64,000 bases of DNA from an uncultured Bacilli bacterium (GTDB lineage: Bacteria; Bacillota_I; Bacilli_A; RF39; UBA660): positions 3,842 to 67,841 of the forward strand of contig CANPVV010000002.1 in NCBI GenBank assembly GCA_947581835.1, in the 5' to 3' direction. The translations under genes and the position numbers were made by a program. Each line of letters opens with the position of its first letter. Within the stretch, counting starts at the first letter, position 1. The notes beneath the pieces were generated by a model. It was not told the DNA's origin, made no database searches, and saw only the letters and a list, made by a program, of their open reading frames with translations. Positions 8,414-58,192 of this stretch are shown here, piece by piece.

Positions 8414-8459
8414 ATCTGTTCACTTTACTTTCAAAAAAAATACCACTCTAAAAAAGTGG

Positions 8460-8998: not shown

Positions 8999-8999
8999 A

Positions 9000-13944: not shown

Positions 13945-15847
13945 TTATACAGATAGTGATATTCAAGTCTTAGAAGGCTTAGAGGCTGTTCGCAAACGCC
14001 CGGGTATGTATATAGGAACAACAAGTGAACGTGGCTTGCATCACCTCGTATGGGAAATTGTTGATAATGCCGTTGATGAGTCTCTCGCCGGTTTTTGTGA
14101 CGATATAGAAGTAGTTGTCCACAATGATAATTCTGTTTCTGTCAAAGATGATGGTCGTGGAATGCCAACTGGTATTAATGAAAAAACTGGTTTATCTACC
14201 ATTGAAACAATATTTACTGTCCTTCATGCTGGTGGTAAATTTGGTGGTGGTGGCTATAAAGTAAGTGGCGGCTTACATGGTGTTGGCGCAAGTGTTGTAA
14301 ATGCCCTATCTACTTGGCTTGAAGTTCGTGTTTATCGTGATGGCGAAGTTCATTATGAACGCTTTGAAAATGGAGGCCACCCTTGTGCTCCTATGAAAGT
14401 TATTGATACTTGTTCTAAAGATCGAACTGGAACTACTGTGACTTTTAAAGCGGACCCAACTATTTTTAAAGAAACTACCGAATTTAACTATGAAACTTTA
14501 GCTACTCGTCTCCGGGAATTAGCCTTTTTAAATAAAGGTCTTCGCATTACTTTAATTGACGAACGAGTACCCGATAAAAAAGACGTCTTTTGCTATAATG
14601 GTGGAATTGTTGAATATGTAACCATGTTAAATAAAAACAAGCAACCTCTTCATGATGATATAATCTATGTAGAAGGAACTGTTGATAATATAAGTATTGA
14701 AGTTGCCATGCAATACAATGATTCTTATACTGCTAATCTCTACTCTTTCACCAACAATATTAATACATATGAAGGTGGAACTCATGAAGATGGGGTTAAA
14801 ATTGCTTTAACGAGAATTATTAACAATTATGCTCGTGGTGCTAAATTATTAAAAGAAAAAGACGAAGCTTTAAGCGGAGATGATTGTCGTGAAGGACTTG
14901 CTATGATTATTTCTTGCAAGCACCCTGATCCCCAATTTGAAGGTCAAACTAAAACTAAATTAGGTAATAGTGAGGTTCGTAAAATTGCAAGTGATATTTT
15001 TGGTCAAGGACTCGAACGTTATTTAATGGAAAATCCTCAAGCCGCTCGTGCTATTATTGATAAATGTATGACTGCCTCTCGCGCCCGTATTGCTGCGAAA
15101 AAAGCTCGTGAGGCCACCCGTCGTAAAGGAGACTTAGACGTTACCAACTTTTTTGGTAAACTTGCCGATTGTAAAAGTAAAGATGCTACCATCAGTGAGA
15201 TATTTCTAGTCGAGGGAGATTCAGCCGGAGGCTCTGCTATAAAAGGTCGAGATAGTATGACTCAAGCAATTCTTCCTTTAAGAGGTAAAATCTTAAATGT
15301 TGAAAAAGCTCGTTTAGATCGTGCTCTATCTAATGAAGAAATAAGAACCATTATAACTGCTTTTGGCACTGGAATTGGTGAAGATTTTAATTTAGATAAA
15401 TTAAGATATCACAAAATTATTATTATGACCGATGCCGATGTTGATGGCTCTCATATTCGTGTCTTACTTTTAACCCTATTTTACCGCTTTTTTAAGCCTA
15501 TTGTCGAGGCTGGCCATGTCTATGCTGCCCAACCACCATTATTCGTTATAAAACACGGTAAAACGATTAAATATGTCTTAAATGAACAAGAAAGAGATGA
15601 ATATATCGCTAGTCTTTCACCTAATACTAAATATGATATTGCTCGTATGAAAGGTTTAGGTGAGATGGATGCCGAAGAATTAAATGAAACAACTATGGAT
15701 ATTAATAAACGTGTTCTTCGTCAAATCACCGTCGATGATGCTATCGCTGCTGATGAAATATTTAATAAATTAATGGGTGAAGAAGTTGAACCTCGTCGGG
15801 AATTTATTGAAACAAATGCTACTTATGTTGAAAATCTTGATATCTAG
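13934..15847 (+). CDS. gyrB: DNA gyrase subunit B
   Basis: ORF track frame. Likely true start is ATG 13934 ([28 protein letters not shown]) after RBS AAGGAGG, overlapping the recF stop. Motifs EGDSAGG and [10 protein letters not shown]. Confidence 0.9.
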
Positions 15848-15858
15848 GAGGTGTAAAT

Positions 15859-18312: not shown

Positions 18313-18395
18313 GCATTATTTTTTTTATTCAAATTATTAAAATGACCTATAAATAAAAATGTTAGTAACTTAAAAAATATAGGAAAATTATAAAA

Positions 18396-18411
18396 TGTTT
18401 CACGTGAAACA
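18396..18411. promoter_or_regulatory. parS: parS site 1 (perfect TGTTTCACGTGAAACA)
   Basis: Exact match to the Bacillota parS consensus TGTTNCACGTGAAACA. Lies within the 18-bp palindrome ATGTTTCACGTGAAACAT. Confidence 0.85.
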
Positions 18412-18618
18412 TTACTCCCTCTCTTGAGATATTTAAAGAAATTACAATGTAATTAGCTTTATGTTTAATCTTATATTTAATTTAAATGTTAAAAGCAATA
18501 TATTCAATCTATCTGCACAATAAATATATCTAAACCTAAAAATCCAAGAATCCTAAAATATAAAATCTAAATTAATTACAAATAAAACTATTTAAAAACA
18601 ACTTATCAACACTCCAAA

Positions 18619-18634
18619 GGTTTCACGTGAAACA
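18619..18634. promoter_or_regulatory. parS: parS site 2 (GGTTTCACGTGAAACA, 1 mismatch)
   Basis: 15/16 match. Preceded by ACTTATCAACA. Confidence 0.75.
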
Positions 18635-18694
18635 TCGAATTCTGAAAAAAGAAAAAATAAAATTAAAAAATCAATTCAAAAAAGTTATAAACAA

Positions 18695-18710
18695 TGTTTC
18701 ACGTGAAACA
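18695..18710. promoter_or_regulatory. parS: parS site 3 (perfect)
   Basis: CAATGTTTCACGTGAAACATT. Confidence 0.85.
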
Positions 18711-18851
18711 TTACAAACATAAAAACAATTTTTTACAAACTAAAACAAAATTTTAAAAGAAAAAACAATAAACTTTAGAATTTTAAAAAAGAAAATTAAA
18801 ATTTTAAAAATAAATTACAAAAAATAATCAAAAATATTAACTTATCAACAA

Positions 18852-18867
18852 TGTTTCACGTGAAACA
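18852..18867. promoter_or_regulatory. parS: parS site 4 (perfect; 22-bp palindrome CAATGTTTCACGTGAAACATTG)
   Basis: Exact consensus. Preceded by ACTTATCAACA (DnaA-box-like TTATCAACA). Confidence 0.85.
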
Positions 18868-18899
18868 TTGTCATAATTTCTAAAAAATGTAAAATTTTA

Positions 18900-18915
18900 T
18901 GTTTCACGTGAAACA
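18900..18915. promoter_or_regulatory. parS: parS site 5 (perfect)
   Basis: ATGTTTCACGTGAAACAT immediately upstream of the tadA region. Confidence 0.85.
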
Positions 18916-19049
18916 TATACTTGCCAAAACCTCAAAAATGTGGTAAATTAATATCGTGCAACAAATATATTGTAACCTGGTCAGAGTTGGAAAACAGCAG
19001 CCATATCAATCCCTATTTGTGTGCACATTTTTTATTGGAGGAAAATAAA

Positions 19050-19475
19050 ATGCCAGAAAAATACTTTCAAATTCTTATGAAATTATGCCATAAAGCTATC
19101 AAACATAAAGAAGTTCCCATCGCTGCTATAATAGTCCATGAAAACAAGATTATTGCTAAAGCTTATAACACTAGAAAATCTAAAAATAATCCTCTGAATC
19201 ATGCCGAAATGTTAGTAATTAAAAAAGCCAGCCAAAAATTAAAAAGTTGGCGTTTAAATAATTGTGATCTTTATGTAACTTTAAAACCCTGCTCAATGTG
19301 TGAATCTACTATTAAACAAGCTCGTTTATCTAATGTTTACTATTTATTAGAAAAACCAGAAAATAAAAAAGAATACTATAAAACCAATTTTTCAAAAGCA
19401 AACATACGTACGCAAAATGAAGAATATTCTCAATATTTAACAGACTTTTTTAAGAATTTAAGAGACAAAGCCTAA
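19050..19475 (+). CDS. tadA: tRNA-specific adenosine deaminase (CDA-fold zinc deaminase)
   Basis: HAEMLVI...PCSMCE zinc-binding motifs. Conserved position upstream of dnaX. Real start is probably ATG 19050 after RBS GGAGGAAAATAAA; the ORF-track start 18921 is upstream and overlaps parS. Confidence 0.75.
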   Translation: MPEKYFQILMKLCHKAIKHKEVPIAAIIVHENKIIAKAYNTRKSKNNPLNHAEMLVIKKASQKLKSWRLNNCDLYVTLKPCSMCESTIKQARLSNVYYLLEKPENKKEYYKTNFSKANIRTQNEEYSQYLTDFFKNLRDKA

Positions 19476-19506
19476 TATCTATGCTATAATTAAAAAGGTG
19501 ATAAAA

Positions 19507-21192
19507 ATGGATTACAAAGTGCTATATCGTAAATACCGTCCTACAGATTTTTCAAATATAATTGGCCAAGATTATATTGTATCCATTTTAAAAAATGCTA
19601 TATCTAAAAATAAAATTTCTCATGCCTATATTTTCTCTGGACCTCGTGGAACTGGTAAAACTAGTACAGCTAAAGTATTCGCTAAAGCTGTTAACTGCTT
19701 AGAACCAACCCCTCTAGGCCCCTGCCATAACTGCGAAAGCTGCTTAAATTTTAAAACCAATGCAGATATAATAGAAATAGATGCCGCCTCAAACAATGGT
19801 GTCGATGAAATTCGAGAAATAATAAACAATATCAAATTAGCCCCTGCTTATTCAAAATATAAGGTCTATATTATTGATGAGGTTCATATGCTTAGTACCA
19901 GTGCTTTTAATGCCCTCTTACTAACTTTAGAAGAGCCTCCTAAGCACGTTATTTTTATACTTGCTACGACTAATATTGAAGCTGTACCTATTACTATTTT
20001 ATCTCGTTGCCAACGCTTTGATTTTCATAAAATAACCACTAAAGATATTTTAAATCGCCTTAATTATATAGCATCCAATGAAAATATTGACATTGAACCT
20101 GAAGCTTTAGAGGAAATTGCCTACATTAGTGATGGTGGTATGCGTGATGCTTTAAGTATTTTAGACCAATTATCAAGTAATACCTCCAAAGTTACAATAA
20201 ATGACGTCATTTCCCACTTTGGTTCTGCCTCTAAAAAGCAAATTAACGATTTATTTAATAATATTTTAACCAACAATATCAGCAATTTTATTGATATGAT
20301 CAACAATTTTAAAAACTTATCTATTGATTATAAACTATTAATCCGAAAATTACTTGAAAAAATCGAAGAAGAAGCCATAAATTCTAAAAAAGATTCTAAT
20401 TATACCGGACTATCCTATGATTCTCTTCGCTCTATGGCATTTGAATTAGCAGATATTTCCAACTTTATCAACATTAATATTGACCCCTTTATTTTAATTG
20501 AAATAACTTTATTAAAATATTTTCCCGCCCAAAATGAAGAAACACTTTCCAAAACAAAAAATCTATCTTCTATAAATGATTCTAATACCACCCAAAACTC
20601 CCCTGTTACCACTCAATTAACCGAAAACTCTAAACCAACTTCTCCTCCTGTATCAACTAATGTTTCTAAAAATTTAGAAAAAGAAGAAGCCAAGCCTTCT
20701 AAACCCCATCAAGTTCGCCAACTAGATGAAAACTTAAAAGAACTAATCAAAATTCGCGTTAATAATTGCCTTTGTGAAGCCTCTAAAGAAAACCTTAAAA
20801 CTATCCAACCTCTATGGCAAAAATTTCTTACAAATTTACCAAATAAAACCTTGCTTAATCTCATAATTGATAGTAATATAGTAGTAGCGAGCCCAACTCT
20901 TGCTATAATAACTGATAATATCGAAGGAACCGTTACTTTAATTAATAAAAATTTAGATACTTTAAGTACCGAATTTAATAATTTTTCTAAGTTATCATAT
21001 AAGTTTGTCGCTCTAACAACTGAATCTTGGCAAGAAGAAAAAACAACTTATATTGCTAATCTGAAAAATAAAATAAGTTACACATTAATTCCCGAGCCAA
21101 CCATAGAAGAAACCCCACTAACTCCTGAAATTAATGAATTTGAAAAAACAGCTTATGAAATATTTGATCAAGATAAAATAGAAATTATTTAA
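19507..21192 (+). CDS. dnaX: DNA polymerase III subunit tau/gamma
   Basis: Walker A GPRGTGKTS. Zinc module CHNCESC. Box VYIIDEVHML. SRCQRF motif. ATG 19507 preferred over ORF-track GTG 19498 on RBS spacing. Confidence 0.9.
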   Translation: MDYKVLYRKYRPTDFSNIIGQDYIVSILKNAISKNKISHAYIFSGPRGTGKTSTAKVFAKAVNCLEPTPLGPCHNCESCLNFKTNADIIEIDAASNNGVDEIREIINNIKLAPAYSKYKVYIIDEVHMLSTSAFNALLLTLEEPPKHVIFILATTNIEAVPITILSRCQRFDFHKITTKDILNRLNYIASNENIDIEPEALEEIAYISDGGMRDALSILDQLSSNTSKVTINDVISHFGSASKKQINDLFNNILTNNISNFIDMINNFKNLSIDYKLLIRKLLEKIEEEAINSKKDSNYTGLSYDSLRSMAFELADISNFININIDPFILIEITLLKYFPAQNEETLSKTKNLSSINDSNTTQNSPVTTQLTENSKPTSPPVSTNVSKNLEKEEAKPSKPHQVRQLDENLKELIKIRVNNCLCEASKENLKTIQPLWQKFLTNLPNKTLLNLIIDSNIVVASPTLAIITDNIEGTVTLINKNLDTLSTEFNNFSKLSYKFVALTTESWQEEKTTYIANLKNKISYTLIPEPTIEETPLTPEINEFEKTAYEIFDQDKIEII

Positions 21193-34972: not shown

Positions 34973-35356
34973 ATGAAAAGTATTATTATTTCTAAAATTA
35001 TTTTATCTGTTTTATTATTTTTTGTATTTTTTATTCCCCCAAATACCTTTGGATATGTATATATTACTATTTCTTTTTTATCTTTTATAGTTCTCTTACT
35101 ATATACTATCTTTAATCAAAAACATAAATATATATCTTTTAAAAATATAATAAAAATAATCTTATTAGATATAATTATTGCTCTATTTTTAAAATATTCT
35201 ATGAAGACCTTTATAAAAGTGCCAGATTATGGTTTAGATACTTTAGGATTAGTATTTATTCCTTATGCAGCTAACTACATATACACTGGTTGCCTTATAG
35301 TTTACAATGTTTTTTTAGCTATAATATTAGCCATAACTAAATTATTTAATAAATAA
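34973..35356 (+). CDS. Small polytopic membrane protein, paralog A (127 aa)
   Basis: ORF track. Four hydrophobic segments. RBS AAGGAG. Confidence 0.55.
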   Translation: MKSIIISKIILSVLLFFVFFIPPNTFGYVYITISFLSFIVLLLYTIFNQKHKYISFKNIIKIILLDIIIALFLKYSMKTFIKVPDYGLDTLGLVFIPYAANYIYTGCLIVYNVFLAIILAITKLFNK

Positions 35357-35515: not shown

Positions 35516-35899
35516 ATGAAAAGTATTATTATTTCTAAAATTATTTTATTTATTTTCTTTTTTATTAGCCTTTTTATTCCACCTAAAACTATTGAAGATA
35601 TATATATTTATATATATTTATTAACTATTATAATTCTTTTACTATATACTATCTTTAATCAAAAACATAAATATATATCTTTTAAAAATATAATTAAAAT
35701 TATCTTATTAGATACATTTGTACCAATTTTTTTAATATATTTTTTAGATACCTTTAATATCCTCCCGGATTATGGCTTATATACTTTAGGATTTTTAGGT
35801 ATTAATTTATTATGTAACTATATATTCACAGGTTGCCTTATAGTTTACAATATTTTTTTAGCTATAATATTAACCATAACTAAATTATTTAATAAATAG
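35516..35899 (+). CDS. Small polytopic membrane protein, paralog B (127 aa)
   Basis: Identical length. N-terminal MKSIIISKIIL... and C-terminal ...TGCLIVYN.FLAIIL.ITKLFNK shared with paralog A. Confidence 0.55.
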   Translation: MKSIIISKIILFIFFFISLFIPPKTIEDIYIYIYLLTIIILLLYTIFNQKHKYISFKNIIKIILLDTFVPIFLIYFLDTFNILPDYGLYTLGFLGINLLCNYIFTGCLIVYNIFLAIILTITKLFNK

Positions 35900-36149: not shown

Positions 36150-37586
36150 TTATTTAAAAGTTATATCATAATTACTAGGTCCATTTATACATTTACCATC
36201 AATATCAAACCTAGAACCATGACACAAACATTCCCAAGTTTTCTCCGTCTCATTAAATACTATTCCACACTTTAAATGGGGACATTTACTTAAAACAATA
36301 TGCTCTTTTCCCATATCATCTTTATATATCCACACTTTTTTTCCATCTATTGTTTTACCTACAATATTTTTATTATTAACATTATTATTACTTTTAACAA
36401 TTGCCTTTATATTTCCATATCCATCTTCTAAACCCCTTTTTAATTTTTTAAAATTTATTCCTCTTTTCGGCTTAAATAAAGAAATAAAAGGATTATAATT
36501 ATTTAATATTGTATCTTTAATAACTAAACCCGCCATCGTTCCATTAGTAAATCCCCAAGTATTATAACCTGTCGCAATAATTAAACTATTATCTTTATCA
36601 ATTGTTCCAATTAAAGGCATATAATCATTTGTAATAATATCATTATTAGTCCATAAATAAGTAAACCCACCTTTATCTTTTAAATCTTTAAAATACGTTT
36701 TAAAATCTTCAATATTAGCGCTTTTCTTAGAATTAAGCAAATAAATTAAATAATTAATATCTTTATTTTGATAATATCTTAAAGATATTGTTGGGTTATC
36801 TACATTTATAGCACTAATTAATTTTTCTTCTTTAACCTTTTTAGCACCTATAAAAGAAGTTTCAATATAACTTTTAATAGGTAACATTACATTTTTTAAA
36901 AAATAAGGATAATGAGTAGCTATAACTAAATATTTACATTTAACTATCTTTCCATTTACTAAACACTCATAATAATCATTTACTTTTCTAAAACTCTCTA
37001 ACTTTGAATTTTCATATATCTGACTCTGATATAACTTTTTAAAATAATCAATATATTTTAAGGGATTAAAAGTATATGTATCACCAACTTTTATTGCCAA
37101 CTTACACTCTTCATTAAAAGGCACTTCTTTAACTAAACCAGCCTCAACTTTCCTATCTTTTAAAAACTCATACTCATTTTGAATTAATTTAATATTCTCA
37201 TTTTTATTTGTAAAAATATAAGAACTAACTTTTCTAAAATCACAATCTATTTTATATTCTTCCACAATATCCTGTATTAACTCTACTGCACATATCTGAC
37301 TTTTTAAATATTCTTGAGCTATCTTTTCTCCTAAAGTATCCTTAATTTTCCCATAAATATCTTCTTGTAAATAAGTAATTTTAGCAGTACTTTTACCCGT
37401 AGTTCCATATCCACACTTATTTCTATCTATCAAAACACACTTTATTTTATTAAGCATTAATTGATGCAAAACCGATATTCCAGTTATACCTCCACCCACG
37501 ATTAAAACGTCAATATCTAAGTCTTTATCAATACTTTGCATCTTAAAATTATTATCTAATTCTTCCCATATACTCTTATTTTTCAT
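36150..37586 (-). CDS. FAD-dependent oxidoreductase with C-terminal Rieske [2Fe-2S] domain (YhfW-like)
   Basis: N-terminal DVLIVGGGITGISV (FAD GxGxxG). C-terminal CPHLKCG...CLCHGSRF (Rieske CxH...CxxH). Confidence 0.7.
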   Translation of the reverse strand: MKNKSIWEELDNNFKMQSIDKDLDIDVLIVGGGITGISVLHQLMLNKIKCVLIDRNKCGYGTTGKSTAKITYLQEDIYGKIKDTLGEKIAQEYLKSQICAVELIQDIVEEYKIDCDFRKVSSYIFTNKNENIKLIQNEYEFLKDRKVEAGLVKEVPFNEECKLAIKVGDTYTFNPLKYIDYFKKLYQSQIYENSKLESFRKVNDYYECLVNGKIVKCKYLVIATHYPYFLKNVMLPIKSYIETSFIGAKKVKEEKLISAINVDNPTISLRYYQNKDINYLIYLLNSKKSANIEDFKTYFKDLKDKGGFTYLWTNNDIITNDYMPLIGTIDKDNSLIIATGYNTWGFTNGTMAGLVIKDTILNNYNPFISLFKPKRGINFKKLKRGLEDGYGNIKAIVKSNNNVNNKNIVGKTIDGKKVWIYKDDMGKEHIVLSKCPHLKCGIVFNETEKTWECLCHGSRFDIDGKCINGPSNYDITFK

Positions 37587-47395: not shown

Positions 47396-48166
47396 TTAAA
47401 CAATAATTAATATTAGATAACAAATTATCCCACTTAAAACATTACTTAAAATATTTACAACGTCATTATTAAATATTTCCATACCTTTTTTTACAACTGT
47501 TTTAGTTTTACAATGTTCCTTTTTTTCAGTAATAATATGACATTTAGGACATTCATATTTAACTTGGAATAAAGCCCCTAAGAAACTATCTAACATATTA
47601 CCTAAAAAACCACAAATGGCTATAATAAGAAAATATTTAATATTATAATTAAATATGAAGTGAATTAACGCAATAAAACTACTTCCAACTAAAGCAGCAC
47701 CCATCCCTAAAATACTAATATTCCCTGATAAACCATGTGTACTTTTCTTTAAAGTTAAAATATTAATTGGAGGTTTATCTGATAAAATTCCTATATCAGA
47801 AGCAAGACTATCTGCGATAGCCTCAGCCATAACTGCCGCATATATTACTTTCATATAAGGAATATTAAATAATAAAACTAAAGCACCCGGTAAAACATTA
47901 GCAATTATCGAACCAATATTTTTCTCATGACCTTTTTCATGAATATCTTTACTCTTTTCTTTTCTTTTTTCTGACTTTATCATACCTGCAATAACAGTTC
48001 CTAAAAAAACAGCACAAAGTATTAAAAAACACTCTAACCCTCCATAATAAGTAATTATAACTGATAAAATAAACGCAAGTATTAAAGCATTTGTAGTCAT
48101 TGCTTTTTTATAATATGCAAAAGATGCCAATATTAAACTAGTTATTAAACTAAATAAAAATTGCAT
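47396..48166 (-). CDS. DUF92/COG1836 integral membrane protein (TMEM19 / VTE6 phytyl-phosphate-kinase family) with C-terminal Cys4 motif
   Basis: Multi-TM. GSIIANVLPG...AAVMAEAIADSLASDIG...GLSGNISILG conserved DUF92 blocks. C-terminal CPKCH...HCKTK. Confidence 0.55.
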   Translation of the reverse strand: MQFLFSLITSLILASFAYYKKAMTTNALILAFILSVIITYYGGLECFLILCAVFLGTVIAGMIKSEKRKEKSKDIHEKGHEKNIGSIIANVLPGALVLLFNIPYMKVIYAAVMAEAIADSLASDIGILSDKPPINILTLKKSTHGLSGNISILGMGAALVGSSFIALIHFIFNYNIKYFLIIAICGFLGNMLDSFLGALFQVKYECPKCHIITEKKEHCKTKTVVKKGMEIFNNDVVNILSNVLSGIICYLILIIV

Positions 48167-48176
48167 TATATCCCTC

Positions 48177-48815
48177 CTAAAATAAAGATGAAAGAATTGC
48201 TAAACCAATAGGTAAAGTTAAATTATCATATTGAAATCCAAATAATTCTAAAAAACTTGCAAACAACCCAATTAACAAATAATTTAAACCTGTAAAACCT
48301 AAACTATAATAATTATTAAAAACTACACTTATAATAATAGCCATCAAAAATATCCCTAAAGAACCACTATAAGTTTTTTTAGTATTACCTATCTCTAAAT
48401 TTAATTTTAATCCAATAAAAGGAGCAATCCCATCACCTAAAGCCATTGTTAAAACCCCAATCCCATAAAAAGGTAAAAATGTCGGTTTTAAATATGTAAT
48501 TAATGCTAAAATAGTAAAACTTAAAGCATAATAAATTGTACCTTTACTTTTATTTTCTTTTCGTTCCATTGATTTAAATATATTTTTCTTATAAGATAAA
48601 TAATTAATAAAAATAAATGTTAATGGTGGTATTACTAAATGAATACTTGTTTTAAAGAAATATACCATTATAAACCATGAAAAACCCACCATAATATGAA
48701 CTATCTTACGAGATGCCTCTTCTTTTAAATGAAATATTTTTTTACTAAAATTTGTTAATATTAAGACTAAAATCAAATATAAATATGTAAAAAGATAACC
48801 AAATATTATATTCAT
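48177..48815 (-). CDS. Polyprenol/phytol/dolichol-kinase-family (CTP-dependent, CdsA-like PF01148) membrane protein
   Basis: Multi-TM. SRKIVHI and ALGDGIAPFIG motifs characteristic of the dolichol/phytol kinase family. Adjacent to the DUF92 gene. Confidence 0.5.
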   Translation of the reverse strand: MNIIFGYLFTYLYLILVLILTNFSKKIFHLKEEASRKIVHIMVGFSWFIMVYFFKTSIHLVIPPLTFIFINYLSYKKNIFKSMERKENKSKGTIYYALSFTILALITYLKPTFLPFYGIGVLTMALGDGIAPFIGLKLNLEIGNTKKTYSGSLGIFLMAIIISVVFNNYYSLGFTGLNYLLIGLFASFLELFGFQYDNLTLPIGLAILSSLF

Positions 48816-49195: not shown

Positions 49196-49858
49196 TCATT
49201 TTATTGGAAAATAAAACTCCCCTGATATATATTTTTCATTTTTCATTTTATTAATTTCATCAGAAAAACAATTATTTGCAATTAAATTAGTATAATAAAT
49301 ATTAGAAAATACATCTGCTATCTGTATTAATTCTCTAGTTTCAGATTGACAATATTCAACATAAAATTCTTCCTGTATATGACTTCCTGTAACTAACTCT
49401 GTATTTAAATATTCGCCAAGTGTTGACCTTGTTTCAGTTCTAACATTCCTTTCATCAATAAATAAATAATTTTCTTTGACGGATATTTGTTTATATTTAG
49501 TAAAATGTTCAAAGCTTAATTTTAAAAGATAATTAAATGCTCTTGCGGTGTTATTATAAAAATAATCTTTAACTTTTTTATTATCGCATATAATATAATA
49601 TATTTCAAACAATTCATTTTGACAAAAAAAGTTAACAAATTTTCTTTTCATATTAGCAGTAAAACAATTTCCTTTCAATTCTTTAAATTTCCCATTATCA
49701 TAAAACATTTTATTATCTTTATCCATCTTTCTTAAATTATCAAAATTACTACTTATAAATCTTTTAAATGCTCTTTTTAATCTATCTTTATTTTTAGGCA
49801 TTATAACACAGATGACAAAATATTTGTTTTTGTAATAGTTTAAATATTTTTTAGTCAT
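49196..49858 (-). CDS. Hypothetical protein; weak resemblance to DUF3800-type proteins (C-terminal QIADV motif); true start probably internal
   Basis: ORF track. An extended -10 (TGTGTTATAAT, minus sense) lies inside the 5' end of the ORF, suggesting a start at MDKDNKMFY or later. Confidence 0.35.
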   Translation of the reverse strand: MTKKYLNYYKNKYFVICVIMPKNKDRLKRAFKRFISSNFDNLRKMDKDNKMFYDNGKFKELKGNCFTANMKRKFVNFFCQNELFEIYYIICDNKKVKDYFYNNTARAFNYLLKLSFEHFTKYKQISVKENYLFIDERNVRTETRSTLGEYLNTELVTGSHIQEEFYVEYCQSETRELIQIADVFSNIYYTNLIANNCFSDEINKMKNEKYISGEFYFPIK

Positions 49859-51129: not shown

Positions 51130-51918
51130 TTATTTTTTATTTAGTTTGCGTTTAAATTCTTCAATTGGTGTTACTATCTCCTCTGGTAGTTTTTGATAAT
51201 CAATGTTAAGTTCTCTTGAAAAATTTGAATTAGACATAACCCCTTGAAATAAAGGAATCTGATTTTTATTAACATATTCATGACAACAAGAACAATAATA
51301 ATTATTACCGATAGATAAATCCATTCTTAAATCATGACCAAACATATAACATAACTTTCCACGTAAAAAGTTTAAGTAATCTTTATATTGTAGAAATTTT
51401 TTCTGTTCTTCAATAATCATGCGATATGTTTTATTATTAATAGCAAGGGAATAATCATCATAAATTTCATCAGGAATTAATTGTTTATATGGTTGAGAAA
51501 GTTTAGTATGATCAGTAGAAATTTTTCCCTCAACGCAAGTAATTGCACCACACGTTACACATTTATATTTTTTTAAATACCTTCTATCAAAGCCCCTTCT
51601 AAAACTATGCTTATTAAAAGAACTTTCCATAATTTTTTCACTCAAAATTAAATAATTATGACCATGAATTTGGCAATATGTATCTAAAATTTTTATTCTT
51701 GCTTCTTCAAGTTCACAATATTTTTTCTCATTTTCATTAAAAGCTTCCTCTATTTCTTGGAGTTTTTTACTTCTTATATCTCTTAAAATTAAAATTCTTG
51801 ATTTATTATTTTTCTTTAAAGTTGCTCTGTCTTTATAAACTTTTGTTTCTTCATCTTGATACTCTTGTAAAACTAAATTTAATTTTTGATCAAATATATT
51901 TATATTTTCATTTGTCAT
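51130..51918 (-). CDS. Cys/His-rich hypothetical protein (262 aa), inserted between truA and rplM
   Basis: ORF track. Motifs CQIHGHNY, CVTCGAITC, CYMFGHD, CSCCHEY suggest metal binding. Confidence 0.4.
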   Translation of the reverse strand: MTNENINIFDQKLNLVLQEYQDEETKVYKDRATLKKNNKSRILILRDIRSKKLQEIEEAFNENEKKYCELEEARIKILDTYCQIHGHNYLILSEKIMESSFNKHSFRRGFDRRYLKKYKCVTCGAITCVEGKISTDHTKLSQPYKQLIPDEIYDDYSLAINNKTYRMIIEEQKKFLQYKDYLNFLRGKLCYMFGHDLRMDLSIGNNYYCSCCHEYVNKNQIPLFQGVMSNSNFSRELNIDYQKLPEEIVTPIEEFKRKLNKK

Positions 51919-51973: not shown

Positions 51974-52699
51974 TTATTTATAATAAATTTTATTTAAATA
52001 TAAGCCATTAGGTAAAGCTGTACTAAATGTTTTAGAAATATTAGGATTATCTAAAGCATATTTAATTTCATCTATTGTATTTTTACCCCGACCTACATCC
52101 ATCATCGCTCCAACTAAATTTCTTACCATATATCGATAAAAACTTTTACCTATAAATTTTATTTCCAAAATATCTTTATGCTTTTTAAATTTAATATCAT
52201 ATATAATACACTCATAATTATTTCGAGTTCCCGCAACAAAATTTTCAAAATTATGAATACCTACAAAAATTTTAGCACAATCTTTCATTTTATCAATATC
52301 TAAAGAATATTCTGGAGTATAATAATAATCGGTATATAAAGGATTATATTTACCTAAATTAATTTTATAAATATACTCTTTTTTTATAGTATTAAAACGG
52401 GCATGAAAAGAAGCATCCACGATTTTTACATTAGTAACATAAATATAAGGCTTTACTAAACTATTTAAAGCCAATTTTAAATGATTTTCATCAATATTAA
52501 TATCTAATTTAAAAGAAGCTTTTTGGTCATATGCATGAACACCCCTATCAGTTCTACCAGCCCCCTTTATTGTTACTTCTTTTTTATTTATTAAAGTTAA
52601 AGCTTCCTCTATCCTTTGCTGTACAGTAAAATGCTTTTTTAATCTTTGAAATCCATAAAATTTAGATCCATCATAACTTATACTTATTAAAAAATACAT
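51974..52699 (-). CDS. truA: tRNA pseudouridine(38-40) synthase TruA
   Basis: Catalytic GAGRTDRGVHA motif. Conserved position upstream of rplM-rpsI. Confidence 0.9.
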   Translation of the reverse strand: MYFLISISYDGSKFYGFQRLKKHFTVQQRIEEALTLINKKEVTIKGAGRTDRGVHAYDQKASFKLDINIDENHLKLALNSLVKPYIYVTNVKIVDASFHARFNTIKKEYIYKINLGKYNPLYTDYYYTPEYSLDIDKMKDCAKIFVGIHNFENFVAGTRNNYECIIYDIKFKKHKDILEIKFIGKSFYRYMVRNLVGAMMDVGRGKNTIDEIKYALDNPNISKTFSTALPNGLYLNKIYYK

Positions 52700-52700
52700 A

Positions 52701-53315
52701 CTATTCCTCCTTAATTCTATATATTGCTTTTAATAACTCCGGAGTAGTTTTATAATCTGATATTTTAATATTTTTATTTTTAATTAAAGTTATAAATTTA
52801 CTAATTGGTGGATTTTCTACATAATCTAAAATTTTAAAATCTTTATTATTAAAAGTGTGGATAATTTCTTTGTTATCAACATAAATTATTTCTTTAGCTA
52901 TAGACCAAAGATATGTTAAATCATTTGTATATAAAATTATAGTTTTATGATAATCTTGCGAAATCTTTTTAAATAGGCGTTTAAACTCTTCATTTTCCAG
53001 ATAAGTTAAATATTTATCAAAATATTCTAAAAATAAATAATCTTTATTAGCAATAAGCGCTTGAGCAAGATTTACTTTAATTATGTCACTTTCGGTTAAA
53101 TCTTGAACAGTTTTAGTTAAATAACTTTCATCTAACAAAACCATTTTAAGACTATTTAAAGCTTTAGGACTGTTTAAGTATGAAGCAATATCATTTTTAA
53201 ATTTATAATCACTCACAATACTACAATTATGATGGTTAGTAGTTAAATTAATATTACCCATAAGCCCATAGATAAAGCCAGGTGTTTTAGTATCTATAAT
53301 CCGCATTACTTCCAT
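52701..53315 (-). CDS. Degenerate EcfA'-like ABC ATPase homolog lacking Walker A/B and H-loop (pseudo-ATPase or decaying gene)
   Basis: GFIYGLMGNINLTTN in place of GxxGxGKS/T. LTESDIIKVNLAQALIANKDYLFLEYFD in place of LSGGQ...ILDEPT. KTIILYTNDLTYLWSIAKEIIYVDNKEI resembles the EcfA H-loop/C-terminal block but His is replaced by Asn. Confidence 0.5.
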   Translation of the reverse strand: MEVMRIIDTKTPGFIYGLMGNINLTTNHHNCSIVSDYKFKNDIASYLNSPKALNSLKMVLLDESYLTKTVQDLTESDIIKVNLAQALIANKDYLFLEYFDKYLTYLENEEFKRLFKKISQDYHKTIILYTNDLTYLWSIAKEIIYVDNKEIIHTFNNKDFKILDYVENPPISKFITLIKNKNIKISDYKTTPELLKAIYRIKEE

Positions 53316-53899
53316 AAATCATTCACCAAACTTTCAGCATCAAAATAAACTTTATTAACTAAATTATAATATTTTAAACCAATAGATAAATCAAGAATAA
53401 AGGGCAGATTCAAACCTAATTTTTTAAATATTTTTTCCTCTTTTAAAACAGATTTAGTATTTCCTTCAATAATAATCTCTTGATTATGAATTACTATTAA
53501 ATAATCTAAAAACAAAGTTTCTTCAATATCTGTAGTATAGTTTACAATTATTTTTTTATTTAATTTTAAAAAGTTAATTATATGCATTTTAAATTCATAA
53601 TCTAAAAATGTTAAAACATTTACAAACACAAAGATATTTTTCTGATAATCAAGAGAAGATAAAATTGTTAATTTAAGTTCATCTTGTTTAGTTAATTTAG
53701 GTTTAGAAAGTAAATCAAGAAGATTAAATTCTTTTAATAATGGCTGAGGTATACCATTTATATAATATTTTTTGTCTTTAGTTATTACCTCAGCATTATT
53801 ATTTAAAAAAAAGATTATATCATCATGATAATTATAATTAGTTGAAATAATAGTTGTATCTTTTTTAGGTAATTCTTGAAATACTAACATAATTATCAC
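53306..53899 (-). CDS. Degenerate EcfA-like ABC ATPase homolog (N-terminally truncated, no Walker A; H-loop His->Thr)
   Basis: KKIIVNYTTDIEETLFLDYLIVIHNQEIIIEGNTKSVL...KKLGLNLPFILDLSIGLKY aligns with B. subtilis EcfA GLTVILVTHNMEDAAKYAEQIVVMHKGTVFLQGSAEEVF...EKIGVDLPMSLKY. LTKQDELKLTILSSL in place of LSGGQ. IFVFVNVLTFLDYE in place of Walker B. Confidence 0.55.
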   Translation of the reverse strand: MIIMLVFQELPKKDTTIISTNYNYHDDIIFFLNNNAEVITKDKKYYINGIPQPLLKEFNLLDLLSKPKLTKQDELKLTILSSLDYQKNIFVFVNVLTFLDYEFKMHIINFLKLNKKIIVNYTTDIEETLFLDYLIVIHNQEIIIEGNTKSVLKEEKIFKKLGLNLPFILDLSIGLKYYNLVNKVYFDAESLVNDLWK

Positions 53900-54040
53900 C
53901 TCTTTAGGTATATAATAACAAATTATTAGAAGTTTTTAAAGTAAAAAGATAGCTTCTTTTTAAGAAACTATCAATATAAAGTAATAAAAATATAACTTGC
54001 CTTTAGATAGAGATAATAAGCACTAAAGGCAAGAGAAGTA

Positions 54041-55477
54041 TTAATCTAGTTTTACTGTGAAAGGTTTAGAAGAAGTACCCTCTCCTCCTTCTTCAAATGG
54101 GGTATCGGCTTTGAGGTTTATTACTGGTCTAACACCACTAGCATTGCCTACGTTGTGCCCGCCAAGGTAGCCACCAGTGTTATCCACATAGAACACGAGA
54201 GCACTTGTAGCAAAAAACGGAGACATGGTCCAATAATATTCACCTGTATATAAGTAATAACTTCTGTTAGTATAACTCGCGCCATAACCTGAACCTGCAA
54301 ACATTATTTCATCAGCGGTTATTAAGCCTACTGGAATTGGTAATTTTCTATTTCCTCTATTACTGTCTTCAGTTGTATACAAATCTTTATCTATCTGTGG
54401 ACATTTAAAAGATGGTTTTTTATCTATTTCAATTCGTAAACGTGGACCATAATATGTATTAATACCTCCATAACCATAATTTGTTTTATCAATTAGACTG
54501 CCAGAAGAATTACTTGCATATGGTGTTCTATCTCCACAAAAACCTGCTTCACCATCTAACCATTTCTTAGCATCTTCTGATATACCATCATTGTTATACC
54601 AATTATTCATTATTTCTGTCAAAATACTACTTTTTTCTTCATTTGCATGAGTAGCATTATATGCTGTATCATCTTCTGCTTTTTTAGCTTGACCAGTTTT
54701 TCCAAACATATATCCTACATATGCATTATCTCCAGACCAAGTATTAAATACTTTACTAGTTAAAGCCACAGTTTTAGGCCCAGTTGTAGCGGCAGTTCCA
54801 CTTCCACTATAAATCAACCTTATTGTTCCATCTCCATTTATCCTTATTATTCGCCAATATGTTTCTCCTAATTTTACCCAATTTTTTTCAGTCGTACCTC
54901 TAATATAGTATGTTTCTCCATAATCATCTACTCCTTTACATAACAAATCTTTATCAGTAATTGGTTTAGTTATAGCATTATTTGGTTGACCTGTAGTTTG
55001 ATCAATTACTGGACAATCTTCATCATTAGATAACTCTAAATCAGGAAATTTTGCCAATGTATCTTGTACTGTTGGTATTTTAATTTCATTGAAGTAAATA
55101 TAACATTTTGTTCCTTTTTTATTTATTTTTATATTTACTTCTTCTCCATCAAAAGTTATTTTATCTTTTATAGGAATTTCACTATCTGGAACTTTGCAAT
55201 AACTATCATTACTTAATTCATATTTTCCTATTGGTATTGAATCTATTGGTTCATATTCACTTGCATCGTATTCTTTTTTATACATAGCAATAACATTTAA
55301 ATCTGCATTTGAATAGTTAATTGTAGAATTAACTAACTTTGCACTATCAACTACTTTATATTTAGCTTTAGTTAAAAACAAATTTATTATAATAAGAAGT
55401 ACAGCACACATTAAAAAACCATACAAAAACATTATTTTACCTTTTCCACTACTTTCATTTAATTTTTCAAATTTCAT
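54041..55477 (-). CDS. N-terminally membrane-anchored extracellular protein (478 aa), G/Y/T-rich
   Basis: ORF track. TM MFLYGFLMCAVLLIIINLFL. No recognisable catalytic motif. Confidence 0.4.
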   Translation of the reverse strand: MKFEKLNESSGKGKIMFLYGFLMCAVLLIIINLFLTKAKYKVVDSAKLVNSTINYSNADLNVIAMYKKEYDASEYEPIDSIPIGKYELSNDSYCKVPDSEIPIKDKITFDGEEVNIKINKKGTKCYIYFNEIKIPTVQDTLAKFPDLELSNDEDCPVIDQTTGQPNNAITKPITDKDLLCKGVDDYGETYYIRGTTEKNWVKLGETYWRIIRINGDGTIRLIYSGSGTAATTGPKTVALTSKVFNTWSGDNAYVGYMFGKTGQAKKAEDDTAYNATHANEEKSSILTEIMNNWYNNDGISEDAKKWLDGEAGFCGDRTPYASNSSGSLIDKTNYGYGGINTYYGPRLRIEIDKKPSFKCPQIDKDLYTTEDSNRGNRKLPIPVGLITADEIMFAGSGYGASYTNRSYYLYTGEYYWTMSPFFATSALVFYVDNTGGYLGGHNVGNASGVRPVINLKADTPFEEGGEGTSSKPFTVKLD

Positions 55478-56270: not shown

Positions 56271-56864
56271 CTATTCTTTATTACCTTTTAATAATTCAAC
56301 AAAATATTTATTTAGATTTTCATTTAAAGCTAATATAGGACCAATTTGCGATGTAACATAAAAATTATGATATTTATAACCCTCAAGCATAGTATTATTG
56401 TTACCCATCCCTTTTTCTAAATTAAAAATTAAATTATCAGTACTCTTAATTAAATAGTTAGTATTTTGAAAACCTTTTATTTTACCATTGCATAATGAGG
56501 TTGTAGAAATAGTATTACCCACTTGATAATTATCTAACTTAGTAAATTCATAAAGATTTAAAAAATCAAATATACTTAAAGCATTACCTGTTACTAAAAA
56601 TATTTTATCTTGTCTTAAATAACTCAAAATTTCTTCTCTATATTTAGATAAAACTTTTTTAGCTTTTTCTAAATAAATATCTCTACCACTACCTATATAA
56701 ATAAAATTATATTCATTAAAGTTTATTTTATCTTCTAAATTAATATTTATTAATTCATATGCTATATTAGATTCATTTAATAAAAAGGTTAAAGCTTTAA
56801 TATTACCATTTTCTCCATAAAGATTTAATTCATTAGGAAATAAGTGGGCTATTTTTAGTTTCAT
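56271..56864 (-). CDS. gatD: GatD-like (CobQ/CobB-type glutamine amidotransferase fold) partner of MurT, apparently lacking catalytic Cys and His
   Basis: N-terminal MKLKIAHLFPNELNLYGENGNIKAL matches the GatD start (..LNLYSDIGNIIAL). Region equivalent to S. aureus LTICGGYQ reads LVTGNALS. Region equivalent to YLHGPIL reads SQIGPIL. Confidence 0.6.
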   Translation of the reverse strand: MKLKIAHLFPNELNLYGENGNIKALTFLLNESNIAYELININLEDKINFNEYNFIYIGSGRDIYLEKAKKVLSKYREEILSYLRQDKIFLVTGNALSIFDFLNLYEFTKLDNYQVGNTISTTSLCNGKIKGFQNTNYLIKSTDNLIFNLEKGMGNNNTMLEGYKYHNFYVTSQIGPILALNENLNKYFVELLKGNKE

Positions 56865-58192
56865 TAGTTTTCCTCCTTAAATGTATTTTTAAAGATATCT
56901 CCATAATCATAATGAGATAAACAATAAACTTTTAAAGATTTACTTTTTAATATATCTTCTTTCATAGAAGGTAAATCTTCTTTAATAATTATTTTAGCTT
57001 TAGGAATACCTGCAAGAATTAATCGAGTTTCAAGTTCATGTTTTTGTAAGCCACAAACATAAATATTATTAAGACTTTTATTATTTAATAATTCAAATTC
57101 AATATCATATAACCAAGATGCATCTGTATGAGGATATCTTTTACTAATAATACTATAACCTATAATTATATCTTTTAAATCTTTATCATCTTTTATTTTA
57201 AAGATAGCACTATTAAATGTTGTCGCATTCTCAGATTTACAGTTAAAATAACGAAATTTTTTATTTTGATAATCAAAGTATTCATCTTTATAAGTATTAA
57301 TTTCATTTAAAGTTGTACTTATCTTTTTATTTGATAAGCCTAATAGTTTTAAAGCAGCAAAAGCAGATACAACATTATAAGCTTGATATAAAGTATCACT
57401 ACCTAGATTAATAATTTCATTATCAATTTCAATTGTTTCTTTTTCTAAATCAAGATTTTTACCAATAGTATCTGGTTCATAATAAGAAAAATCACAATTA
57501 GAACAGTGGTAAGAACCTAAGTTTTCAAAGTTGTAATAATCATAAATTAATTTAGAATCACAGTTAGGACAAGTGGTAGTATTTAAATTTTCAAAAATTT
57601 GATTATGATAAGAATATTTATTTTCTTTAAGACTAAAATAGTTTATTTCATTGGGTAAATCTTTATTTAAATAGCGAAGAAAAGGATCATCCATTGTGGT
57701 TAGTATTTTAGTTTGTTCAGGAATACTTTTTATTATATCTTTATAAACTATATCAATTGTGTGTTGACGGGGTGGTTGATCTTTAGTTAAATTTGTTATA
57801 ACTAATAAAGTAGGATTAATACTTGTTAAAACCTCTTTGTTGTAGCGTTCATCTATTTCTAATACAAGATAATCAGTTTTTATTTTACCTGTTAGAGAAC
57901 TACATTTAATAAGAGAAGTTGTTATTCCAAAAGATAGATTAGAACCAGTGCTATTATGACAAACTTTATAACCATTTTTAGTTAAAGATTTGGCAATTAA
58001 ACTAGAGGTTGTACCTTTACCTGATGAACCAGTTATTACAATACGATTTTGGGGATATTTTAGTTTAGCTAAAAGATTTTTATCTATTTTTAAAGCAATT
58101 TTACCGGGTAGAGATGAGCCTCTTTTAAAAAGTTTACCTACTAATATTGTTATTTTACCTACTAATATTGCTATTAAATACATTGTTATCAC
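56864..58192 (-). CDS. murT: Lipid II isoglutaminyl synthase subunit MurT (Mur-ligase central domain + DUF1727 zinc ribbon)
   Basis: ITGSSGKGTTSSL (Mur ligase P-loop). C-terminal CPNCDSKL...CSNCD Cys4. Overlaps the gatD-like start. Confidence 0.75.
   Translation of the reverse strand: MITMYLIAILVGKITILVGKLFKRGSSLPGKIALKIDKNLLAKLKYPQNRIVITGSSGKGTTSSLIAKSLTKNGYKVCHNSTGSNLSFGITTSLIKCSSLTGKIKTDYLVLEIDERYNKEVLTSINPTLLVITNLTKDQPPRQHTIDIVYKDIIKSIPEQTKILTTMDDPFLRYLNKDLPNEINYFSLKENKYSYHNQIFENLNTTTCPNCDSKLIYDYYNFENLGSYHCSNCDFSYYEPDTIGKNLDLEKETIEIDNEIINLGSDTLYQAYNVVSAFAALKLLGLSNKKISTTLNEINTYKDEYFDYQNKKFRYFNCKSENATTFNSAIFKIKDDKDLKDIIIGYSIISKRYPHTDASWLYDIEFELLNNKSLNNIYVCGLQKHELETRLILAGIPKAKIIIKEDLPSMKEDILKSKSLKVYCLSHYDYGDIFKNTFKEEN

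What the first reader, a model, noticed from the sequence alone, without database searches (positions are those of the whole stretch)
52701..53899. Two catalytically dead EcfA-like genes at the conserved ecfA-ecfA'-ecfT-truA-rplM-rpsI locus, with EcfT missing
The two overlapping ORFs upstream of truA occupy exactly the position of the ECF-transporter energising ATPases in Bacillota. They retain recognisable C-terminal ABC blocks aligned to the EcfA H-loop/C-terminus and the PxxL coupling region. Both have lost Walker A, the LSGGQ signature and Walker B acidic residues. The H-loop His is Thr in one and Asn in the other. No EcfT-like 5-TM gene follows; a large secreted protein does. These are either pseudo-ATPases retained as ~200-aa intact ORFs for a non-catalytic role, or an operon caught in reductive decay. 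The latter would imply loss of ECF-type vitamin uptake through this module.
Basis: partly seen in the sequence, partly recalled or inferred. Interest (0 to 1): 0.6.

Follow-up and report, generated by a model that had tools for sequence, protein, structure and literature searches.

The report
Conserved dead mini-EcfA gene pair
Two small genes just upstream of truA are shrunken, catalytically dead descendants of the two ATPases that normally power an ECF vitamin-uptake transporter. Selection has kept them intact in at least 26 uncultured gut Bacilli species even though the membrane-partner gene is gone from the locus, so they most likely do an ATP-independent job that is still unknown.

Summary
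O1 (53306-53890, minus strand) descends from EcfA1 and O2 (52701-53315, minus strand) from EcfA2, by NCBIfam, PDB sequence search and Foldseek on confident AF2 models.

Both have lost every ATPase motif:
- **P-loop:** degenerated to STNYNYHDD in O1 and deleted in O2.
- **Q-loop and Q-helix:** deleted in both.
- **Signature LSGGQ:** now LTKQD in O1 and LTESD in O2.
- **Catalytic Glu:** now Val in O1 and Tyr in O2.
- **H-loop His:** now Thr in O1 and Asn in O2.

No reading frame restores a motif. The proteins are internally deleted mini-NBDs, not simple N-terminal truncations. They keep the C-terminal helices that dimerise group-II EcfA proteins.

They are not decaying. The arrangement O1, a 10-nt overlap, O2, then truA is intact in 26 species-level MAGs, and dN/dS is about 0.07-0.3. 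No ecfT lies at the locus or in about 440 kb of clade sequence searched. Whole genomes could not be searched.

Relatives show graded states, from a canonical ecfA1-ecfA2-ecfT-truA locus to these mini forms.

Best reading: a nucleotide-independent pseudo-ATPase heterodimer that no longer couples to EcfT in the canonical way. Its actual function is unknown.

The parts
53306..53890 (-). O1: mini, catalytically dead EcfA1 derivative (194 aa from ATG 53890; the maximal ORF runs to GTG 53899, 197 aa, and residue numbers below use that numbering)
   Evidence: NCBIfam EcfA1 models at E 2.9e-13. PDB EcfA1 5jsz_A/8bms_A. AF2 pLDDT 90.3. 42 homologue clusters of 194-220 aa, nearly all 194-200. Start codon and SD.
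52701..53315 (-). O2: mini, catalytically dead EcfA2 derivative (204 aa), overlapping O1 by 10 nt
   Evidence: NCBIfam cobalt/ECF-A2 models at E 5.5e-11. Foldseek best hit EcfA2 8bms_B. AF2 pLDDT 85.9. 198 homologue clusters, of which the 120 listed are 200-213 aa.
53804..53857 (-). O1 residues 15-32, TTIISTNYNYHDDIIFFL: the strand, degenerate P-loop (GxxGxGKS/T to STNYNYHDD) and shortened helix
   Evidence: MAFFT series with Walker-A-bearing relatives such as P0167 (TTIIGTSQSGKTTLGKQL). AF2 places a strand at 15-19 and a helix at 25-32. Coordinates.
53681..53695 (-). O1 signature remnant LTKQD (was LSGGQ); T70, D73 and K76 are invariant in the family
53615..53635 (-). O1 Walker B remnant IFVFVNV (Asp to Asn, catalytic Glu to Val)
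53528..53539 (-). O1 H-loop remnant YTTD (His to Thr; this position is T, H, Q or S across the family)
53309..53458 (-). O1 C-terminal domain (residues 148-197), the best-conserved part of the protein and close to canonical EcfA1 (KKLGLNLPF..LS.GLKYY..LVNDLWK)
   Evidence: Block conservation is 0.88 at residues 161-180. Alignment to the canonical L039 EcfA1. The dimerisation role of these helices is taken from PMC4245157 and PMC6828968.
53226..53276 (-). O2 residues 14-30, FIYGLMGNINLTTNHHN: the strand before the former P-loop and the deletion scar (about 60 aa lost, including the P-loop helix, Q-loop and Q-helix); Y16, G17, G20, N21 and N30 are invariant
53085..53099 (-). O2 signature remnant LTESD
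53022..53039 (-). O2 Walker B remnant YLFLEY (catalytic Glu to Tyr, nearly invariant)
52920..52931 (-). O2 H-loop remnant YTND (His to Asn; T-N-D is invariant in the family)
52704..52838 (-). O2 C-terminal domain (residues 160-204), ending in the conserved LLKAIYR motif shared with canonical EcfA2
53896..53905 (-). Shine-Dalgarno AAAGAGGTGA, 5 nt before the ATG of O1
   Evidence: sequence read
53948..53972 (-). Terminator-like hairpin after the upstream 478-aa gene; it marks O1 as the first gene of its transcription unit
51974..52699 (-). truA, translationally coupled to O2 (AGGAGGAATAGTATG junction); it follows O2 directly in every clade locus

Best explanation
O1 and O2 are real, co-translated genes. 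They encode miniaturised pseudo-ATPases derived from EcfA1 and EcfA2.

Shown:
- They are homologous to EcfA1 and EcfA2.
- Every nucleotide-binding and hydrolysis motif is lost.
- The Q-loop and Q-helix are deleted.
- The group-II C-terminal helices are retained.
- Both genes are intact and under purifying selection in at least 26 species.
- ecfT is absent from the locus.

Inferred:
- The two proteins still form a heterodimer through the C-terminal four-helix bundle.
- The remodelled former ATP-sandwich faces may add to that interface. The invariant LTKxDExK of O1 would sit opposite the invariant YGLMGN stump of O2.
- They bind no ATP.
- They no longer dock on EcfT coupling helices or power S-components.
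- They survive as an ATP-independent structural or adaptor dimer, made in fixed ratio with TruA.

The cellular role of that dimer is not known.
For: Homology and fold:
- NCBIfam, PDB phmmer and Foldseek all point to EcfA1 for O1 and EcfA2 for O2.
- The AF2 models are confident, with pLDDT 90.3 and 85.9.

Motif loss and deletions:
- Motif changes and internal deletions are mapped.
- No Walker A or signature motif appears in any frame.
- Q-helix and groove residues are needed for EcfT contact, and the C-terminal helices form the dimer bundle (PMC6828968 and PMC4245157).
- The C-terminal blocks are the best conserved part of O1, and the C-termini of both proteins match the canonical relatives.

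Conservation and selection:
- There are 42 O1 and 198 O2 homologue clusters, nearly all about 200 aa long.
- The O1-O2-truA adjacency is intact in 26 species.
- dN/dS is 0.07-0.30 for O1 and 0.10-0.30 for O2, against 0.05-0.17 for truA, in pairs with unsaturated dS.

Expression signals:
- The Shine-Dalgarno sites and overlapping junctions indicate translational coupling.

No membrane partner found:
- tblastn and a local EcfT HMM found no EcfT in the window or in the clade flanks.
- No S-component or CbiQ domain appears among the membrane ORFs there.

Graded relatives:
- L039, L042, L043 and L046 are canonical, with ecfT.
- L048 has dead-site A1 and A2 plus an EcfT-like gene whose two coupling-helix Arg are Lys.
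- L038 has full-length degenerate A1 and A2 without ecfT.
- L040 has a mini pair in which A1 still carries a Walker A.

Against:
- A mirror-tree test gave no co-evolution signal beyond phylogeny: partial r = 0.165, reached in 159 of 2000 permutations.
- Whole genomes of the clade could not be searched, so an unlinked EcfT, or a second intact ECF module, is not excluded.
- There is no expression or biochemical data.
- No positive evidence points to any particular new function.
[quoted passage not shown] A residual groove contact is therefore conceivable.
Confidence: 0.55

Rival explanations
1. Passive ECF cap. An EcfT, possibly diverged as in L048, and S-components are encoded elsewhere in the genome. 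The dead mini-dimer still docks on EcfT as a non-hydrolysing scaffold, so uptake would run without ATP or be energised some other way.
For: L048/L049 show that dead-site A1/A2 proteins can coexist with an EcfT-like gene in the same operon slot. The clade genomes were not searched in full. Most O2 homologues keep an acidic residue in the first helical-subdomain helix.
Against: [quoted passage not shown] These elements form the EcfT-binding groove. No EcfT or S-component was found in the 64-kb window or in about 440 kb of clade sequence. EcfT relatives retrieved from the protein database all come from canonical loci in other MAGs.
Confidence: 0.15
2. Redundant relic beside an intact module. A second, canonical ecfA1-ecfA2-ecfT set elsewhere does the transport. 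The mini pair is a diverged copy with a regulatory or decoy role, for example titrating a partner.
For: Not excluded, because whole genomes were unavailable. ABC paralogy is common.
Against: The mini pair occupies the ancestral syntenic slot immediately before the single-copy genes truA, rplM and rpsI, so by position it is the orthologue rather than a duplicate. No ABC signature motif occurs anywhere in the 64-kb window.
Confidence: 0.12
3. Reductive decay. These are pseudogenes that merely happen to be still open.
For: All catalytic motifs are lost, ecfT is missing from the locus, and the lineage is AT-rich and fast-evolving.
Against: The ORFs are intact and of constant length in 26 species, although synonymous divergence between most species pairs is of the order of 1. 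dN/dS is 0.07-0.3. Family-specific residues are invariant. The AF2 folds are confident. At 22% GC, a random 200-codon frame stays open with a probability of about 3e-9 (my own calculation from base composition).
Confidence: 0.02
4. The coding sequence is retained for its cis-regulatory value, as a leader or translational-coupling platform for truA-rplM-rpsI, with the protein products themselves irrelevant.
For: Tight coupling: the 10-nt O1/O2 overlap, and the truA Shine-Dalgarno site lying inside the end of O2.
Against: Selection acts at the amino-acid level along the whole length of both proteins, and most strongly on a structural domain. Canonical loci achieve the same coupling with functional genes.
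Confidence: 0.04

Closest known systems
EcfA1/EcfA2 (EcfA/EcfA'), the ATPase heterodimer of group-II ECF transporters (e.g. L. delbrueckii 5JSZ/8BMS, L. brevis 4HUQ, T. maritima 4HLU)
   Same: Clear homology, with EcfA1 matching O1 and EcfA2 matching O2. Same gene order and the same position before truA-rplM-rpsI. Same C-terminal helices that make the four-helix dimer bundle. The remaining RecA-like strands and the helical subdomain are also shared.
   Different: The proteins are about 75-85 aa shorter because of internal deletions. They have no P-loop, Q-loop, Q-helix, signature motif, catalytic Glu or H-loop His. No adjacent ecfT. Scores are far below the NCBIfam equivalog cut-offs (about 50 bits against 392 for O1, about 42 against 432 for O2), and there is no Pfam ABC_tran hit.
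ABC heterodimers with one degenerate nucleotide-binding site (e.g. TM287/288, TAP1/2, CFTR NBD1); from general knowledge
   Same: Loss of consensus residues in ABC motifs while the protein stays functional. The intermediate relatives L038 and L048, where A1 keeps a Walker A and A2 has lost it, resemble this asymmetric state.
   Different: Those proteins keep one competent ATP site and full-length NBDs. Here both sites are destroyed and the ATP-binding core is partly deleted.
Pseudoenzymes (pseudo-ATPases, pseudokinases) as a general class
   Same: Descent from an enzyme, loss of all catalytic residues, and retention under purifying selection with a folded structure.
   Different: No partner or allosteric role has been identified here. 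I found no earlier description of a dead, miniaturised EcfA pair (literature searches).
Solitary S-components that work without an ECF module (BioY, BtuM); from general knowledge
   Same: Both show that parts of ECF systems can be uncoupled from each other during evolution.
   Different: There the membrane part survives without the ATPases. Here the ATPase-derived part survives without its linked membrane part.

Membership tests
ECF transporter ATPases EcfA1/EcfA2 (group II energising module) | Sequence and fold homology to the EcfA1 and EcfA2 nucleotide-binding domains | tested here: met
   NCBIfam E 2.9e-13 and 5.5e-11. PDB phmmer. Foldseek top hits are 8bms_A for O1 and 8bms_B for O2.
ECF transporter ATPases EcfA1/EcfA2 (group II energising module) | Score at or above the curated family cut-off (NCBIfam equivalog, Pfam ABC_tran) | tested here: not met
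   O1 scores 49.6 bits against a cut-off of 392. O2 scores 41.9 bits against 432. Pfam gives no hit for either.
ECF transporter ATPases EcfA1/EcfA2 (group II energising module) | Walker A P-loop GxxGxGK[ST] | tested here: not met
   O1 has STNYNYHDD in its place. In O2 the loop and its helix are deleted. No match in any frame.
ECF transporter ATPases EcfA1/EcfA2 (group II energising module) | Q-loop followed by the Q-helix X-P-D/E-X-Q-hydrophobic, which shapes the EcfT-binding groove | tested here: not met
   This region is deleted in both proteins. The definition is from PMC6828968.
ECF transporter ATPases EcfA1/EcfA2 (group II energising module) | LSGGQ signature, Walker B Asp plus catalytic Glu, and H-loop His | tested here: not met
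   O1 has LTKQD, N-V and T. O2 has LTESD, E-Y and N.
ECF transporter ATPases EcfA1/EcfA2 (group II energising module) | Two C-terminal helices that form the four-helix dimerisation bundle (mandatory in group II) | tested here: met
   The C-terminal blocks are conserved and align with canonical relatives. AF2 predicts C-terminal helices in O1 (167-177, 188-196) and O2 (170-180, 191-202). Actual dimerisation was not tested.
ECF transporter ATPases EcfA1/EcfA2 (group II energising module) | Operon partner EcfT (CbiQ family, coupling helices with XRX motifs) | tested here: not met
   O2 abuts truA in all 26 species. No EcfT was found by tblastn or HMM in the window or the clade flanks. Canonical relatives do have it.
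ECF transporter ATPases EcfA1/EcfA2 (group II energising module) | EcfT and S-components present somewhere in the same genome | not testable with these tools
   Only the window and flanks of up to 10 kb either side of the pair in the related MAGs could be read.
Decaying pseudogene | Frameshifts or stop codons, variable length, patchy retention among relatives, dN/dS near 1 | tested here: not met
   The ORFs are intact and of constant length in 26 species. dN/dS is 0.07-0.3.
Pseudoenzyme (pseudo-ATPase) | Homologue of an enzyme, with catalytic residues lost, a stable fold, and purifying selection | tested here: met
Pseudoenzyme (pseudo-ATPase) | A demonstrated non-catalytic function or binding partner | not testable with these tools
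   This needs biochemistry or a complex prediction. The co-evolution test was uninformative.

The most novel reading that the evidence does not exclude
EcfA1/EcfA2 dimers have a second function that needs neither ATP nor EcfT. It resides in the C-terminal bundle and the helical-subdomain surface, and may be tied to the truA/rplM/rpsI unit with which the pair is always co-translated. In a large radiation of uncultured low-GC gut Bacilli, that second function alone was kept while the transporter role was dismantled step by step. The steps would be: ATP sites die, the EcfT coupling Arg are lost, ecfT is lost, and the NBD core is deleted. The end product would be a new pseudoenzyme family.
Probability: 0.3. 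Interest if true: 0.75.

Novelty: new variant of a known kind. Interest (0 to 1): 0.6.

Why it matters
ABC and ECF ATPase subunits are treated as obligate motor proteins. A pair that has lost both ATP sites, part of the nucleotide-binding core and its linked membrane partner, yet stays under purifying selection across many species, points to one of two things. Either the EcfA heterodimer has an unrecognised non-motor function, or there is an unusual ATP-independent use of ECF parts.

The graded relatives found here give a natural dissection series. It runs from canonical loci, through dead-site forms with a modified EcfT and dead-site forms without EcfT, to mini forms. That series could be used to work out which surfaces matter.

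There is also a practical point. Annotation pipelines call these genes 'hypothetical', or in one case 'MlaF-like'. Metabolic reconstructions of these gut lineages should not count them as a vitamin-uptake module.

Tried and rejected
- **Frame correction:** a six-frame scan of 52501-54200 found no Walker A or signature motif, and no LSGGQ/E occurs anywhere in the window.
- **EcfT in the neighbourhood:** tblastn with a relative's EcfT, and a local EcfT HMM run with all filters off over the six-frame translation of 577 kb, hit only canonical loci and L048/L049.
- **EcfT in the clade's MAGs through the protein database:** 56 EcfT relatives were found. The three I looked up all sit in canonical loci of other MAGs. 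This says nothing firm about the clade.
- **S-components among membrane ORFs of the flanks:** I found only MntP, DUF92, an acyltransferase and unknowns.
- **Mirror-tree co-evolution of O1 and O2:** not significant after controlling for truA, rplM and rpsI.
- **Defence or phage origin:** PADLOC gave nothing, and PHROGs gave only a generic ABC hit for O2.
- **Foldseek against AFDB50:** the library was not available.
- **Literature:** no description of dead or truncated EcfA pairs. The paper on reductive evolution in RFN20, RF39 and related orders does not mention ECF.
- **Possible paralogy of the two 478-aa ORFs in the window:** none.
Full report
**Anatomy**

The region is read on the minus strand. 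The gene order is as follows:
- a 478-aa N-terminally anchored protein with a weak DUF6273 match (54041-55477);
- a terminator-like hairpin (53972-53948);
- O1;
- O2;
- truA (51974-52699);
- a 262-aa ORF of unknown function;
- rplM, then rpsI.

The maximal O1 ORF starts at GTG 53899. That GTG lies inside the Shine-Dalgarno AAAGAGGTGA. The real start is ATG 53890, giving 194 aa, as public gene calls also have it. O2 (52701-53315, 204 aa) overlaps the end of O1 by 10 nt. The Shine-Dalgarno site of truA lies inside the end of O2 (AGGAGGAATAGTATG). The three genes are therefore translationally coupled.

**Is it EcfA-like?**

Pfam gives no hit for either protein. Other searches do:
- NCBIfam aligns O1 residues 24-197 to positions 99-274 of an EcfA1 model (E 2.9e-13).
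- NCBIfam aligns O2 residues 51-200 to a cobalt/ECF-A2 model (E 5.5e-11). Both scores are far below the family cut-offs.
- phmmer against PDB sequences finds L. delbrueckii EcfA1 for O1 (E 1.7e-7), and MJ0796 and other ABC proteins for O2.
- AF2 models are confident (pLDDT 90.3 and 85.9). Foldseek ranks EcfA1 chain 8bms_A first for O1 and EcfA2 chain 8bms_B first for O2.

So O1 descends from EcfA1 and O2 from EcfA2, in the canonical order.

**Motif status**

| Motif | O1 | O2 |
|---|---|---|
| P-loop | degenerate, STNYNYHDD | deleted together with its helix |
| Q-loop and Q-helix | deleted | deleted |
| Signature LSGGQ | LTKQD | LTESD |
| Walker B Asp | Asn | Glu (Asp in most homologues) |
| Catalytic Glu | Val | Tyr |
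| H-loop His | Thr | Asn |

No Walker A or signature motif exists in any frame of 52501-54200. Geometry also leaves no room for a missing N-terminus.

Alignments with graded relatives refine the anatomy:
- O1 keeps the strand, loop and helix of the P-loop region in degenerate form (TTIISTNYNYHDDIIFFL, against TTIIGTSQSGKTTLGKQL in P0167).
- O1 has lost about 14 N-terminal residues. It also has an internal deletion of roughly 45-50 aa that removes the Q-loop, the Q-helix and the first helical-subdomain helix.
- O2 keeps only the strand before the P-loop (IYGLMG) and then lacks about 60 aa.

The literature says the Q-helix and that first helix build the acidic groove that binds the Arg of the EcfT coupling helices. 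It also says two C-terminal helices form the four-helix bundle that dimerises group-II EcfA proteins (PMC6828968, PMC4245157). The groove elements are gone. The C-terminal domains are retained and align closely with canonical relatives, and in O1 this is the best-conserved part of the protein.

**Decay or function?**

Database searches found 42 O1 clusters, nearly all 194-200 aa, and 198 O2 clusters (the 120 listed are 200-213 aa). All come from metagenomes and MAGs.

A scan of species-representative genomes found 26 loci in uncultured gut Bacilli. The hosts include rabbit, mouse and chicken, and one locus is from Ca. Caccenecus avistercoris. In every locus O1 and O2 are intact, they share the same 10-nt overlap, and truA follows at once.

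Pairwise Nei-Gojobori dN/dS in the less saturated pairs is 0.07-0.30 for O1 and 0.10-0.30 for O2. The value for truA is 0.05-0.17. Both families have invariant residues of their own. The reductive-decay reading is therefore rejected.

**Where is EcfT?**

It is not at the locus in any of the 26 species. Three further checks agree:
- tblastn with an EcfT from a canonical relative found nothing in the window or the clade flanks.
- A local EcfT HMM run without filters over 577 kb of six-frame translation hit only canonical loci and L048/L049.
- No S-component or CbiQ protein is among the membrane ORFs there.

The window has no ABC signature motif in any frame. EcfT relatives retrieved from the protein database belong to canonical rplQ-...-ecfA1-ecfA2-ecfT-truA-rplM-rpsI loci of other MAGs. 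I could not search whole genomes of the clade, so an unlinked EcfT or a second module remains possible.

**A graded series**

A profile search with the O1 family over 1.8 billion representative proteins gave 1068 hits. Among the 99 near-full-length proteins in the top 150:
- 7 keep the signature motif;
- 59 keep a Walker A but lack the signature;
- 33 have neither.

Genomic contexts show distinct states:

| State | Loci | Content |
|---|---|---|
| Canonical | L039, L042, L043, L046 | A1-A2-T-truA |
| Dead sites, EcfT-like kept | L048/L049 | A1 has a Walker A but no signature; A2 has no Walker A and H-loop His is Asn; a 245-aa EcfT-like gene has Lys in place of both coupling-helix Arg |
| Degenerate, no EcfT | L038 | full-length degenerate A1 and A2, then truA |
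| Mini pair, Walker A kept | L040 | mini A1 still with a Walker A, mini A2, then truA |
| Mini pair, no motifs | window clade | O1, O2, then truA |

A crude neighbour-joining tree places canonical forms at the base and the O1 family as a terminal clade nested among forms with no motifs. Some shortenings appear to be independent. The tree has no bootstrap support and ladder-like artefacts are possible, so I treat the order of events as suggestive only.

**Mechanism**

The shown and inferred parts are listed under the best explanation. In short, loss of every motif, retention of the C-terminal helices, purifying selection, translational coupling and the absence of a linked ecfT are shown. A nucleotide-independent heterodimer that no longer docks on EcfT, held by the C-terminal bundle and possibly the remodelled ATP-sandwich faces, is inferred.

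A mirror-tree test gave no extra support for co-evolution of the two proteins. No complex model could be run.

**Rivals**
- A passive cap on an unlinked EcfT (0.15).
- A relic or decoy beside an intact second module (0.12).
- A cis-regulatory platform (0.04).
- A pseudogene pair (0.02).

**Novelty**

No paper in the searchable library describes such proteins. They fail most defining features of EcfA proteins, so I do not file them as ECF ATPases. I describe them as a pseudo-ATPase variant derived from EcfA1 and EcfA2. I score interest at 0.6. The finding is real, conserved and unexpected for ABC specialists. Its function is open, though, and the whole-genome ECF inventory is still needed.

Noticed in passing
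window 47396-48815 (minus strand): A 212-aa six-TM protein with no Pfam hit (48177-48815) sits directly next to a DUF92 membrane protein (47396-48166). The pair is conserved downstream of rpsI in at least 8 clade loci. Its motifs (SRK..H, GDG.AP, KT..GS) look to me like a polyprenol/phytol-kinase-type enzyme. That is from memory and was not tested.
   Followed up: partly
window 49196-49858 (minus strand): A DUF3800 protein that also matches phrog_9243 is inserted between rpsI and the membrane-protein pair. It is absent from that slot in the other clade loci whose gene tables I inspected, so it is probably a recent insertion.
   Followed up: no
window 51130-51918 (minus strand): A 262-aa ORF with several CxxC pairs and no family hit lies between truA and rplM. 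This slot holds unrelated ORFs of different sizes in relatives (388 aa in L002, 119 aa in L006).
   Followed up: no
window 34973-35356 and 35516-35899 (plus strand): Two tandem 127-aa four-TM paralogues, 72% identical over their C-terminal 81 residues. Neither has a Pfam match.
   Followed up: partly
L048 7591-8328 (also L049): An EcfT-like 245-aa gene that falls below Pfam detection. Both conserved coupling-helix arginines (XRX motifs) are lysine. It sits behind A1/A2 genes whose ATP sites are already degenerate, which looks like a possible intermediate in dismantling the ECF module.
   Followed up: partly
L038 3591-5206 and L040 152-1344: Further grades of degeneration in other uncultured lineages. 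L038 has full-length A1 (Walker A kept, signature lost) and A2 (no Pfam hit) with no ecfT. L040 has a mini pair in which A1 still carries GTSQSGKT at residue 20.
   Followed up: partly
window 54041-55477 (minus strand): A 478-aa N-terminally anchored protein with a weak DUF6273 match lies directly upstream of the pair. The upstream neighbour differs in relatives (rpmE in L002). It is unrelated to the other 478-aa ORF at 36150-37586.
   Followed up: partly
window 1-20000: The probable replication-origin region. A GC-skew sign change near 10 kb lies just upstream of ORFs at 9535-18312 that I take, from position and size only, to be dnaA, dnaN, recF, gyrB and gyrA. An SRP RNA is at 18947-19037.
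   Followed up: no
window 56271-58192 (minus strand): Adjacent 442-aa and 197-aa ORFs that look like a MurT/GatD-type peptidoglycan amidation pair. Relatives carry SpoIIR and SpoVT genes (L002). Together these would suggest a walled, possibly sporulating lineage rather than a wall-less one. The MurT/GatD assignment is by eye and was not tested.
   Followed up: no
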